Positions 52,781-59,663 of a stretch of 64,000 nt of DNA are shown in pieces. A model generated the notes under the pieces. It was given only the letters and a program-made list of their open reading frames with translations, did not search any database and was not told the DNA's origin. The first letter of the stretch is position 1, and every line of letters begins with the position of its first letter. Origin of the DNA: the human T2T-CHM13v2.0 reference genome, Homo sapiens. The stretch lies in NCBI RefSeq assembly GCF_009914755.1, contig NC_060947.1. One strand, 5' to 3'. A program made the position numbers and the translations under genes.

Positions 52781-52820
52781 CATGGGAACACCTTTCTCAG
52801 CTGAATATAAGAAATTTGTG
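52781..52820 (+). mobile_element. Gypsy integrase core, part 2 (GTPFSAEYKKFV)
   Basis: Matches the segment that follows SDN in Gypsy integrases (GTAFTSAEFQEF); includes the left TSD of the L1PA2. Confidence 0.75.
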
Positions 52821-53724
52821 GAGAGGAGTCAAGATGGCCAAATAGGAACAGCTCTGGTCTACAGCTCCCAGCGTGAGCGATGCAGAAGACGGGTGATTTC
52901 TGCATTTCCATCTGAGGTACTGGGTTCATCTCACTAGGGAGTGCCAGACAGTGGGCGCAGGCCAGTGGGTGCACGCACTGTGCGCAAGCTGAAGCAGGGC
53001 GAGGCATTGCCTCACTTGGGAAGCGCAAGGGGTCAGGGAGTTCCCTTTCTGAGTCAAAGAAAGGGGTGAAGGACGCACCTGGAAAATCGGGTCACTCCCA
53101 CCCAAATATTGAGCTTTTCAGAACGGCTTAAAAAACGGTGCACCATGAGACTATATCCCACACCTGGCTCGGAGGGTCCTATGCCCACGGAATCTCACTG
53201 ATTGCTAGCACAGCAGTCTGAGATCAAACTGCAAGGCAGCAGTGAGGCTGGGGGAGGGGCACCCGCCATTGCCCAGGCTTGCTTAGGTAAACAAAGCAGC
53301 CAGGAAGCTGGAACTGGGTGGAGCCCACCACAGCTCAAGGAGGCCTGCCTGCCTCTGTAGGCTCCACCTCTGGGGGCAGGGCACAGACAAACAAAAAGAC
53401 AGCAGTAACCTCTGCAGACTTAAATGTCCCTGTCTGACAGCTTTGAAGAGAGCAGTGGTTCTCCCAGCACACAGCTGGAGATCTGAGAACGGGCAGACTG
53501 CCTCCTCAAGTGGGTCCATGACTCCTGACCCCCGAGCAGCCTAACTGGGAGGTACTCCCCAGCAGGGGCACACTGACACCTCACACGGCAGGGTATTCCA
53601 ACAGACCTGCAGCTGAGGGTCCTGTCTGTTAGAAGGAAAACTAACAAACAGAAAGGACATCCACACCAAAAACCCATCTGTACATCACCATCATCAAAGA
53701 CCAAAAGTAGATAAAACCACAAAG
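52821..53724 (+). promoter_or_regulatory. L1 5'UTR internal sense promoter and antisense promoter region
   Basis: YY1 motif caagatggcc at 52830-52839; complete about 900-bp UTR with partly decayed CpGs; activity cannot be judged from sequence. Confidence 0.7.
53195..53269 (-). pseudogene. L1 ORF0 truncated at codon 25
   Basis: MAGAPPPASLLPCSLISDCCASNQ then TGA (CGA>TGA). Confidence 0.8.
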
Positions 53725-54741
53725 ATGGGGAAAAAACAGAACAGAAAAACTGGAAACTCTAAAACGCAGAGCGCCTCTCCTCTGCCAAAGGAATGTAGTT
53801 CCTCACCAGCAACGGAACAAAGCTGGATGGAGAATGACTTTGACGAGCTGAGAGAAGAAGGCTTCAGATGATCAAATTACTCTGAGCTACGGGAGGACAT
53901 TCAAACCAAAGGCAAAGAAGTTGAACACTTTGAAAAAAATTTAGAAGAATGTATAACTAGAATAACCAATACAGAGAAGTGCTTAAAGGAGCTGATGGAG
54001 CTGAAAACCAAGGCTCGAGAACTACATGAGGAATGCAGAAGCCTCAGGAGCCGATGCGATCAACTGGAAGAAAGGGTATCAGCAATGGAAGATGAAATGA
54101 ATGAAATGAAGCGAGAAGGGAAATTTAGAGAAAAAAGAATAAAAAGAAATGAGCAAAGCCTCCAAGAAATATGGGACTATGTGAAAAGACCAAATCTACG
54201 TCTGATTGGTGTACCTGAAAGTGATGGGGAGAATGCAACCAAGTTGGAAAACACTCTGCCGGATATTATCCAGGAGGACTTCCCTAATCTAGCAAGGCAG
54301 GCCAACGTTCAGATTCAGGAAATACAGAGAACGCCACAAAGATACTCCTCGAGAAGAGCAACTCCAAGACACATAATTGTCAGATTCACCAAAGTTGAAA
54401 TGAAGGAAAAAATGTTAAGGGCAGCCAGAGAGAAAGGTCGGGTTACCCTCAAAGGGAAGCCCATCAGGCGAACAGCGGATCTCTCGGCAGAAACCCTACA
54501 AGCCAGAAGAGAGTGGGGGCCAATATTCAACATTCCTAAAGAAAAGAATTTCCAACCCAGAATTTCATATCCAGCCAAACTAAGCTTCATAAGTGAAGGA
54601 GAAATAAAATCCTTTACAGACAAGCAAATGCTGAGAGATTTTGTCACCACCAGGCCTGCCCTAAAAGAGCTCCTGAAGGAAACGCTAAACATGGAAAGGA
54701 ACAACCGGTACCAGCCACTGCAAAATCATGCCAAAATGTAA
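53725..54741 (+). pseudogene. L1 ORF1p (338 codons) with one nonsense codon, R49*
   Basis: ATG at 53725, TAA ending 54741 (1017 bp); TGA at 53869-53871; frame otherwise open (248-aa ORF from M91). Confidence 0.93.
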
Positions 54742-54804
54742 AGACCATCGAGACTAGGAAGAAACTGCATCAACTAACGAGCAAAATCACCAGCTAACAT
54801 CATA

Positions 54805-57800: not shown

Positions 57801-58627
57801 CAATGGCAACAAAAGCCAAAATTGACAAATGGGATCTAATTAAACTAAAGAGCTTCTGCACAGCAAAAGAAATGACCATCAGAGTGAACAGGCAACCTAC
57901 AAAATGGGAGAAAATTTTCACAACCTACTCATCTGACAAAGGGCTAATATCCAGAATCTACAATGAACTCAAACAAATCTACAAGAAAAAAACAAACAAC
58001 CCCATCAAAAAGTGGGCAAAGGACATGAACAGACACTTCTCAAAAGAAGACATTAATGCAGCCAAAAAACACATGAAAAAATGCTCATCATCACTGGCCA
58101 TCAGAGAAATGCAAATCAAAACCACAATGAGATACCATCTCACACCAGTTAGAATGGCAATCATTAAAAAGTCAGGAAACAACAGGTGCTGGAAAGGATG
58201 TGGAGAAATAGGAACACTTTTACACTGTTGGTGGGACTGTAAACTAGTTCAACCGTTGTGGAAGTCAGTGTGGTGATTCCTCAAGGATCTAGAACTAGAA
58301 ATACCATTTGACCCAGCCATCCCATTACTGGGTATATACCCAAAGGACTATAAATCATGCTGCTATAAAGACACATGCACACGTATGTTTATTGCGGCAT
58401 TATTCACAATAGCAAAGACTTGGAACCAAGTCAAATGTCCAACAATGATAGACTGGATTAAGAAAATGTGGCACATATACACCAGGGAATACTATGCAGC
58501 CATAAAAAATGATGAGTTCATGTCCTTTGTAGGGACATGGATGAAATTGGAAATCATCATTCTCAGTAAACTATCACAAGAACAAAAAACCAAACACCGC
58601 ATATTCTCACTCATAGGTGGGAATTGA
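54805..58627 (+). pseudogene. L1 ORF2p, disrupted; open for the first 476 codons
   Basis: 1-bp deletion near 56205, stop at 56679-56681, 4-bp deletion near 57045, stop at 58274-58276; EN motifs and RT FADD present. Confidence 0.95.
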
Positions 58628-58887
58628 ACAATGAGATCACATGGACACAGGAAGGGGAATATCACACTCTGGGGACTGTGGTGGGGTGGGGGGAGGGGGG
58701 AGGGATAGCATTGGGAGATATACCTAATGCTAGATGGCGAGTTAGTGGGTGCAGCACACCAGCATGGCACATGTATACATATGTAACTAACCTGCACAAT
58801 GTGCACATGTACCCTAAAACTTAAAGTATAATTAAAAAAAAAGAAAAAAAAGAAAAAAAATTAAAAAATAAAAAAAAGAAATTTGTG

Positions 58888-59663
58888 ATCAGGAGCATTC
58901 ACCAAACTGTCACCATCACATCTCAACACCCTCAGGAAAATAATTATGATCAGGGAATCCTGCAGACAACTAAGAATTCACTGAAGCAGATTATTCAAGG
59001 AGACTATTCAATACTTGCTAGGTCTTTGATTGGTTCTTTTATCATTTTATGCTCAATGTAATTAATTGAGTTTGTTGATTTACTAATGATATGACATCCC
59101 AGCCTTGCCCTGACTGTATCCTCTTAGACTTAAATGAAAACTTAAACATTCAAATTCCAGATGCTACTCTGTTTGAACATAGAACAACATATAACAGATG
59201 GTATTATTTAATAAATAATTGCTGGATGATGAATGAAAAAAATGACTGTGCCTATATAGCACTCATTTGTACCATAAGACTTTGTCTCTGCTAGTTAGTT
59301 AGGAGATGAACCAAGGTGGGTTCCTGCTCCCTAAGTAATGGAGCCTGGATCTTATCAGTCTAGAGGCAAATGGGTGAGGCGTTGTATTACCATAATGATC
59401 AATAATAAAGAACTTCTTATGGAGCTTTGTCAACAGCCAAACCATTAGACTTTTCTCTGCCAGAGCCATCTGTTGATGACTTTTTAGCTACACATCTGGA
59501 GGACACATCACAACAACAAAATGAAGAAAGCAGTAAGTCTTCTCTAGTTCCTGAGGTGACCAAAATGGAGTCACCTGGAATTTGTACACTTGCTAGAATA
59601 ATACAGAAGTTGATATCCATAATGGAGCTCCCTTGTCAGTTTAAAGACCACATTTTAAATAAT
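58888..59663 (+). mobile_element. Gypsy integrase, part 3: core C-terminal half, C-terminal domain and acidic tail
   Basis: HPQENNYDQGILQTTKNSLKQIIQGDYSILARSL (58927-59028), DLLM, DFVSAS*LGDEPRWVPAP*VMEPGSYQ (59278-59358), HNDQ (59391), low-complexity tail ending LPCQFKDHIL. Confidence 0.85.
59150..59245 (+). mobile_element. Probable L2 3'-end fragment
   Basis: catagaacaacatataacagatggtattatttaataaataattgctggatgatgaatgaa resembles the L2 terminus. Confidence 0.55.

What the first reader, a model, noticed from the sequence alone, without database searches (positions are those of the whole stretch)
52782..59061. Excising the L1PA2 at its TSD restores an open Gypsy integrase frame
Removing 52821-58887 (the element plus one copy of aagaaatttgtg) gives the uninterrupted peptide MGTPFSAEYKKFV|IRSIHQTVTITSQHPQENNYDQGILQTTKNSLKQIIQGDYSILARSLIGSFIILCSM*. 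It aligns with the integrase core after the second Asp (GTAFTSAEF..F..N.I.H....PYHP..NGQAERMVQTTK..L..IVQGDW..RLARFL, from memory). The preceding ITVSD lies about 4 kb upstream at 48780-48794, separated by the HAL1-containing block. This is independent internal support for both the TSD call and the fossil. The catalytic Glu position is not conserved.
Basis: partly seen in the sequence, partly recalled or inferred. Interest (0 to 1): 0.7.

Follow-up and report, generated by a model that had tools for sequence, protein, structure and literature searches.

The report
Young LINE-1 splitting dead Gypsy fossil
A young LINE-1 jumping gene sits inside the decayed remains of a far older Gypsy-type retrotransposon on the human X chromosome, and the short stop-free frame around it is likely chance decay, not a hidden gene.

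Summary
A 6,055-bp L1PA-type element has a 12-bp TSD (52809-52820, 58876-58887) found only twice in the window. Both copies sit on a codon boundary between 13 and 57 stop-free codons. Scored separately against a profile of 70 natural Gypsy Pol proteins, the flanks fall on consecutive integrase columns: right piece best of 127,732 positions, left piece p 6e-5 to 4e-3 over six lengths.

The fossil is larger than reported: RT, RNase H, zinc-finger and integrase pieces run collinearly from about 46.6 to 59.7 kb (best chain E 3e-19). At least 10 other human loci are related.

It is not a restorable or domesticated gene. The ATG sits on the Asn column after the second Asp. An older 3,987-bp block splits the core. 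Homology runs past the stop, Gln lies under the catalytic Glu, and 18 of 351 aligned codons are stops. A 70-codon open run has chance 0.2-0.4.

Human Gypsy fossils are a known class; whether Dfam already names this family could not be tested.

The parts
46761..47281 (+). Weak pieces of the RT N-terminal part and the YxDD region of the Gypsy pol fossil (motif decayed)
   Evidence: HMM columns 393-432 at 46761-46880, 5.3 bits, below the reversed-control maximum of 8.0; P0028 HSPs at 46779-46898 (E 0.39) and 47159-47281 (E 1.9); credible only by collinearity
47436..47612 (+). Alu-monomer-like insertion inside the RT region (name FLAM recalled; ends approximate)
   Evidence: many genome matches at 78-93% to 47550-47627; Alu-derived HSPs 47416-47578
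47614..48067 (+). RT C-terminal and RNase H pieces, with stops and frame changes
   Evidence: HMM 653-692 21.5 bits, 776-817 9.0 bits; chr3 locus L025 77% over 88 nt, E 4e-9
48121..48535 (+). Connection region and integrase H2C2 zinc-finger region in two frames, 6 stops
   Evidence: 28.5 and 25.1 bits; chain E 3e-19 to P0028; genome-wide E 9.4e-6
48637..48794 (+). Integrase core from the first Asp motif to the second Asp (ITVSD, 48780-48794), with a stop and a frame change
   Evidence: first-Asp motif 31.9 bits, best of 127,900 positions, next 13.9; ITVSD on columns 1065-1069
48795..52781 (.). Older 3,987-bp block that splits the integrase core right after the second Asp. It holds an Alu (about 49019-49323), a MIR-like repeat (about 49595-49800), a MER5-like repeat (about 50165-50355) and a 5'-truncated minus-strand L1 (about 50645-52500). 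The host element may be L1M/HAL1 (all family names recalled; HAL1 unverified)
   Evidence: spacing 3,990 nt where the profile expects 3; repeat copies at 70-85%; L1 ORF2 HSPs at 77-79% aa identity; no recent source copy found for the stretches searched
52782..52808 (+). 27-nt left flank of the young L1: integrase columns 1070-1079, one codon short
   Evidence: PSSM p 6e-5 (8 codons), 2.4e-4 (9 codons), TSD left out, six lengths tried, range to 3.5e-3
52809..52820 (+). 5' copy of the 12-bp target-site duplication (columns 1080-1083)
52821..58875 (+). Full-length L1PA2 or late L1PA3, 6,055 bp; ORF1 has a stop at codon 49, ORF2 is broken over three frames; the RefSeq enhancer 53094-53669 lies wholly in its 5' UTR
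   Evidence: (nearest copies 96-97%)
58876..58887 (+). 3' copy of the target-site duplication
58888..59088 (+). Rest of the integrase core, columns 1084-1151: 57 open codons, Gln under the catalytic Glu column at 58951, stop at 59059-59061 inside the homology
   Evidence: 26.1 bits ungapped for 45 codons, best of 127,732 positions, next 8.1; chr6 copy 59/87 nt and chr10 copy 67/107 nt
59257..59400 (+). Weak C-terminal integrase piece, 4 stops
   Evidence: 3.4 bits, not above control; 9 HSPs from 120 proteins
59664..59680 (+). Purine-rich run followed by TG, near where Pol should end: candidate polypurine tract and start of a 3' LTR (by eye, untested)
   Evidence: sequence; no LTR partner found

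Best explanation
The locus is a dead Ty3/Gypsy retrotransposon pol fossil cut by a young LINE-1 with a 12-bp target-site duplication, and by an inferred far older 4-kb insertion block, and its 70 stop-free codons are likely a chance survivor of neutral decay. Shown: collinear RT, RNase H, zinc-finger and integrase pieces; the TSD; consecutive profile columns across both breaks; related copies elsewhere without these breaks. Inferred order: (1) a K02A2.6-like Gypsy element inserted in an early mammalian ancestor, probably over 100 million years ago; (2) an old insertion, probably L1M/HAL1-like, split the integrase core right after the second Asp and then collected MIR-like, MER5-like, Alu and L1 insertions; an old minus-strand L1 lies where gag and the 5' LTR would be; (3) the rest decayed by substitutions, stops and frameshifts; (4) in the great-ape lineage an L1PA2/3 inserted by target-primed reverse transcription 27 nt further on. 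A TSD duplicates bases without loss, so both flanks keep the old codon phase. The fossil has no predicted function; the annotated enhancer is the L1's own 5' UTR.
For: Unbiased discovery: an upstream frame read with X at stops found 1 protein among 235 candidates, a gecko K02A2.6-like Gypsy Pol, E 8.7e-3 for 5.8e9 sequences. A profile of 70 of the 120 natural Pols gives 8 collinear plus-strand pieces; 6 exceed the reversed-window maximum of 8.0 bits. P0028 chain E 3e-19 plus 4.8e-6 for the right piece; its domain order is RT-RNase H-H2C2-rve. 300 frames of 50 ERV-type or domesticated human pol loci give no HSP on the fossil pieces apart from 9 Alu-derived ones. The chr6 copy has 209 nt between anchors that are 10.2 kb apart in the window; the chr6, chr10 and chr12 copies run through both break points without insertion, with TSD-like 12-mers of 8, 9 and 10 of 12. 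Decay: 18 stops in 351 aligned codons, 2 CpG in about 2.8 kb, copy-to-copy JC distances 0.42-0.57. The window has 189 stop-free frames of 70 codons or more.
Against: No Pfam, PDB, database or Atlas hit for the flanks alone. At DNA level the left flank does not match related copies above chance in free local alignment (p 0.92 and 0.38 against chr6; 0 of 9 loci); anchored tests are weak (0.035, 0.07, 0.56 for chr10, chr6, chr12; 8 of 12 bases, 0.002). For this one given stretch, 70 codons without a stop has P 0.025. No LTR pair, gag or protease was found. The age of the 4-kb block rests on recalled MIR and MER5 labels; no TSD was identified for it. No orthologue could be examined.
Confidence: 0.9

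Rival explanations
1. The 70-codon stretch was a domesticated or translated small gene, kept open by selection until the young L1 disrupted it.
For: It is the longest open stretch among the aligned pieces; P 0.025 for this given stretch. The X chromosome carries many Gypsy-derived genes (recalled; PMC3670739 passages discuss X-linked PNMA genes).
Against: P 0.2-0.4 once the whole fossil is counted. The ATG lies on the Asn column and the stop lies inside the homology. Median identity to natural Pols is the lowest of the seven pieces (31%). Mismatches to the chr6 copy are 12/6/10 by codon position, no third-position excess (p 0.46, low power). The first two catalytic Asp codons are 4 kb away and no gene is annotated (hub note).
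Confidence: 0.03
2. The fossil is real but the 27-nt left flank is not part of it: it is the end of the older block and fits the integrase columns by chance, so the frame continuity says nothing about the TSD.
For: Only 9 codons, one gap allowed, six lengths tried; DNA tests against related copies are weak or null.
Against: Its position and phase are fixed by the TSD, and all six lengths give p of 0.0035 or less. It fills exactly the columns missing between ITVSD (1069) and the TSD (1080), and matches the 27-29 nt spacing in the chr10 and chr12 copies.
Confidence: 0.05
3. The pieces are non-coding DNA exapted as a regulatory element, as reported for some ancient protein fossils.
For: Still recognisable after great age; PMC9004415 reports exapted Gypsy fossils (passages).
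Against: The only annotated element lies inside the L1 5' UTR. Repeated insertions into the fossil were tolerated. CpG loss and stop density fit neutral decay.
Confidence: 0.05

Closest known systems
K02A2.6-like Ty3/Gypsy Pol of amphibians, lizards, fish and ticks (P0028 Xenopus tropicalis, P0001 Euleptes europaea)
   Same: Collinear RT-RNase H-H2C2-integrase core, 32-52% identity in the stronger pieces
   Different: The human locus is broken by stops, frameshifts and three insertions, with no gag, protease or LTR pair found
Human Gypsy repeats in Repbase: MamGyp-int, X1_LR to X4_LR and orphan LTRs (PMC5753468 Table 4); MamGypsy2 (name seen only in a search listing)
   Same: Low-copy, highly diverged Gypsy internal sequence in the human genome
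   Different: Identity with any of them is untested: no Dfam or Repbase library was available. NCBI's mask, by the hub's list of longest stretches, does not show these pieces
Gypsy protein fossils of Frith 2022 (PMC9004415)
   Same: Degraded Gypsy Pol fragments in human; 83 pre-amniote ones are counted, 3 of them previously found by RepeatMasker
   Different: The X-linked entry in its Table 4 is at 98.97 Mb near PCDH19, apparently another locus (different assembly, not lifted over). The full hit list is online and was not seen; the supplement has no 'Gypsy' or 'chrX'
Domesticated integrase genes (GIN1, NYNRIN, SCAND3, KRBA2; names recalled except GIN1)
   Same: Retroelement integrase ancestry
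   Different: They keep long open frames (for example a 1,000-aa frame at chr14, recalled as NYNRIN); this locus has 70 split codons, a false start and no annotated transcript
Full-length L1PA2 / late L1PA3
   Same: About 6 kb, 904-nt 5' UTR without the 129-bp segment (PMC5860796 and 10.1101/429613 passages), A-tail, TSD
   Different: Nothing unusual; both ORFs are broken

Membership tests
Ty3/Gypsy (Metaviridae) LTR retrotransposon, as ancestry | pol order RT, RNase H, integrase | tested here: met
   collinear chain
Ty3/Gypsy (Metaviridae) LTR retrotransposon, as ancestry | Pol closer to Gypsy than to ERV | tested here: met
   Gypsy chain E 3e-19; no HSP on the fossil from 50 human ERV-type or domesticated loci apart from Alu-derived ones; no tree built
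Ty3/Gypsy (Metaviridae) LTR retrotransposon, as ancestry | H2C2 region followed by a DDE-type core | tested here: met
   homology to both regions; both Asp codons present, Gln at the Glu column
Ty3/Gypsy (Metaviridae) LTR retrotransposon, as ancestry | pair of LTRs with PBS and polypurine tract | tested here: inconclusive
   candidate tract at 59664-59675 by eye; no LTR partner in the window or the chr6 copy; 5' end not found
Ty3/Gypsy (Metaviridae) LTR retrotransposon, as ancestry | gag and protease upstream of RT | tested here: inconclusive
   no plus-strand hit above control in the window; an old minus-strand L1 lies upstream; sequence beyond the window not searched
Mag clade of Metaviridae | RT/RNase H phylogeny groups it with Mag elements | not tested
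   link of K02A2.6-like proteins to Mag is recalled; one search did not document it; three Mag lineages in reptiles per PMC3670739
MamGyp-int / MamGypsy2 / X_LR families | match to the family consensus | not testable with these tools
   no Dfam or Repbase library
Domesticated Gypsy integrase gene | long open frame with a true start, covering the domain | tested here: not met
   ATG on column 1070, stop inside the homology, core split by 3,987 bp
Domesticated Gypsy integrase gene | better conserved than neighbouring fossil DNA | tested here: not met
   31% median identity versus 34-52%; no third-position excess, low power
Domesticated Gypsy integrase gene | frame conserved in orthologues, dN/dS below 1 | not testable with these tools
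   no other mammalian genome is held
L1PA2 | full length with A-tail, TSD and endonuclease-type site | tested here: met
L1PA2 | 5' UTR without the 129-bp segment | tested here: met
   904 nt; shared with L1PA1 and late L1PA3
L1PA2 | diagnostic positions against L1PA1/2/3 consensus | not testable with these tools
   no consensus library; 96-97% to the nearest copies fits L1PA2 or L1PA3; 3' diagnostic bases are recalled only

The most novel reading that the evidence does not exclude
The locus is one of the longer relics (about 2.8 kb, RT to integrase tail and polypurine tract) of a low-copy K02A2.6-like, probably Mag-type, Gypsy lineage with at least 11 human loci that Dfam and Repbase do not yet name. 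It would show this lineage active in early mammals, and its nested insertions give a relative date.
Probability: 0.3. Interest if true: 0.45.

Novelty: new member of a known kind. Interest (0 to 1): 0.22.

Why it matters
Mammals lost active Gypsy elements and keep only fragmented fossils (PMC3670739 section 13), so each well-mapped locus helps to date that loss. Here three layers of nested insertion give a relative order, and the codon phase gives an independent check of a TSD call. If the family is unnamed it would add a repeat family to the human catalogue. The open frame itself carries no sign of function.

Tried and rejected
Pfam scan of 7 non-L1 frames: no hit better than E 0.21. PDB, homologue and Atlas searches with the 57-codon piece: nothing usable; the Atlas holds the sequence letter for letter, which shows nothing about expression. 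Genome searches with PF00665, PF17921 and whole P0008 scored only the best candidates (150 of 3,250; 150 of 990; 35 of 3,268) and did not list this locus. DNA search with 58888-60300 found only itself. LTR pair: none in the window or the chr6 copy, scores inside the shuffle range. Gag-like hits of about 10 bits beside the chr6 copy were not relied on. The permissive DNA alignments were discarded as uninformative. Free local DNA alignment of the left flank to related copies was not significant. In one search the TSD-like picks for 5 of 8 loci (L074-L077, L080) are not meaningful, because those stretches show no clear homology there. HAL1 could not be confirmed. A 3' transduction origin of the right piece was rejected: the TSD follows the A-tail directly and the piece is collinear with upstream pol. 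The bacterial promoter scan is not relevant to a human locus. No structure was predicted: a 57-codon decayed piece would give no useful model.
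Full report
Observation. The 12-mer flanking the L1 occurs at 52809-52820 and 58876-58887 only; shuffles give a mean of 0.07 matches and 0 of 100 reach two. The 6,055 bp between the copies are a full-length L1: ORF1 ATG at 53725, ORF2 ATG at 54805, Pfam Transposase_22 and endonuclease hits, a 47-nt tail with 40 A. ORF1 has a stop at codon 49 and ORF2 is spread over three frames. The 39 other best-scored copies (40 of 6,038 candidates scored) are 96-97% identical over the 5' end. 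The 904-nt 5' UTR lacks the 129-bp segment, which passages of PMC5860796 and 10.1101/429613 place in L1PA1, L1PA2 and late great-ape L1PA3. So L1PA2 is plausible but not separated from late L1PA3. Both TSD copies begin on a codon boundary; 13 codons on the left and 57 on the right have no stop. The two sides were always analysed as separate pieces.

Is it a Gypsy integrase? The flanks alone gave nothing in Pfam, PDB, the protein database (19 candidates, none at E 10 or less) or the Atlas. An upstream frame, 48076-48753 read with X at stops, found 1 protein among 235 candidates: a gecko K02A2.6-like Pol with RT, rve and H2C2 domains, E 8.7e-3 for 5.8 billion sequences. Its relatives (120 listed of 2,884) gave a profile built from the 70 of length 1,000-1,450 aa. 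On the window it finds a plus-strand chain in column order: 46761-46880 (5.3 bits), 47614-47730 (21.5), 47939-48067 (9.0), 48121-48324 (28.5), 48305-48535 (25.1), 48640-48687 (13.1), 58876-59088 (16.4), 59257-59400 (3.4); the reversed window reaches 8.0 at most. The best single protein, Xenopus P0028, gives a chain E of 3e-19 and 4.8e-6 for the right piece; 54 of 120 proteins hit the right piece at E<0.05. The profile family was seeded from the upstream frame, so the right piece is an independent test: ungapped and without the TSD it scores 26.1 bits, the best of 127,732 positions, next 8.1. Pfam rve ends at P0028 residue 1106, early in the right piece, which explains the missing rve hit. As a control, 300 frames from 50 human ERV-type or domesticated pol loci gave only 9 HSPs there, all on an Alu monomer.

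The junctions. The codons left of the TSD, scored without the TSD against the columns just before it with one gap allowed, give p 6e-5 for 8 codons and 2.4e-4 for 9; six lengths were tried, the weakest 3.5e-3. ITVSD at 48780-48794 sits on columns 1065-1069, the ATG at 52782 on column 1070 and the TSD on 1080-1083. Spacing between anchors differs from the profile by 3,987 nt at the first break, 6,067 nt at the second, and by 73 nt or less elsewhere. Related human copies act as natural stand-ins for the empty site. The chr6 copy matches 48478-48528, 48639-48682 and 58914-59000 in order, with 209 nt between the last two. The chr10 and chr12 copies also run from the second Asp through a TSD-like 12-mer (9 and 10 of 12) with 29 and 27 nt between, against 27 here (read from the printed sequence). 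Against this, the left flank's DNA match to those copies is weak: not significant in free local alignment, and p 0.035, 0.07 and 0.56 when anchored.

The family. A Gypsy-specific stretch of P0028 gave 122 matches at E 10 or less among 148 scored candidates; 9 have E below 2e-5, one being this locus. All 8 others, and the chr6 copy, share at least one DNA piece with the window that beats 99 or more of 100 block shuffles (9 of 9; the chr8 one is marginal). A chr3 locus matches the RT piece at 77% over 88 nt. That makes at least 10 other loci, a floor. The best-aligned blocks are 60-68% identical, JC distance 0.42-0.57. At a recalled neutral rate of about 2.2e-9 per site per year on each lineage this is roughly 100 million years or more; it is a rough inference.

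Is the open frame meaningful? No sign of it. The window has 189 stop-free frames of 70 codons or more. The ATG lies on the Asn column after the second Asp, Gln lies under the catalytic Glu column, and the homology continues past the TAA. The open piece has the lowest median identity to natural Pols of seven pieces, 31% versus 34-52%, with mid-range bits per column, and shows no third-position excess against the chr6 copy (12/6/10, p 0.46, low power). The fossil keeps 2 CpG in about 2.8 kb. The 4-kb block holds two repeats whose best genome copies are 70-85% identical, which I recognise from recall as MIR and MER5; MIR is among the oldest human TEs (PMC1914374 passages). No recent source copy was found for the four stretches of the block that were searched. 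So the core was probably split long before the young L1 arrived.

Mechanism. Shown: collinear pol pieces, TSD, codon phase, consecutive columns, related copies. Inferred: Gypsy insertion in an early mammal; an old insertion splitting the core; neutral decay with further insertions; then target-primed insertion of the L1PA2/3. The RefSeq enhancer 53094-53669 lies inside the L1 5' UTR (52821-53724) and says nothing about the fossil.

Comparison with what is known. Repbase lists human Gypsy traces: MamGyp-int, X1_LR to X4_LR and orphan LTRs (PMC5753468 passages and tables). PMC3670739 states that mammals keep only fragmented Metaviridae fossils (passages and section 13). PMC9004415 finds many human Gypsy protein fossils and notes that few human TE fossils are new (passages, section 6, supplement search). 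PMC10516033 had no passage on MamGyp or Mag. Literature searches listed no paper on this locus, but they cover only part of the literature, and repeat databases were not available. Other papers in those listings were seen as titles and abstract starts only.

Verdict. A real, well-supported nested insertion in an ordinary dead fossil. It is a new member of a known kind, interest 0.22. The open question of value is whether this low-copy family already has a Dfam name.

Noticed in passing
window 43542-44536, minus strand: Old L1 ORF2 remains (24-32% aa identity to the young L1 ORF2); with the AT-rich stretch up to about 46500 it lies where gag and the 5' LTR of the Gypsy would be expected.
   Followed up: partly
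window 59409-59831, plus strand: A 140-codon stop-free frame over the expected Pol tail and candidate 3' LTR start; no Pfam hit. Probably chance.
   Followed up: partly
G000:C8:77483217-77483489 (L073), C4:13920695 (L074), C10:67771130 (L079), C12:26372769 (L078), C7:21778521 (L077), C4:96192046 (L075), C3:187365353 (L080), C13:110038390 (L076): Eight further human K02A2.6-like Gypsy fossils, six scoring better than this locus on the stretch searched; all show stops or frame changes.
   Followed up: partly
L064 (G000:C6:165191500-165200500) and L065 (G000:C3:182976500-182985500): chr6 copy of the integrase region, with weak gag-like hits about 1.1 kb upstream; chr3 copy of the RT C-terminal piece, 25 bits.
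   Followed up: partly
P0028 residues 17-113: The gag of the closest natural element has a weak PNMA-family Pfam hit, E 1.3e-4, below the curated cut-off.
   Followed up: no
window 53094-53669: The RefSeq enhancer falls wholly inside the young L1's 5' UTR, which keeps 18 CpG (o/e 0.27).
   Followed up: partly
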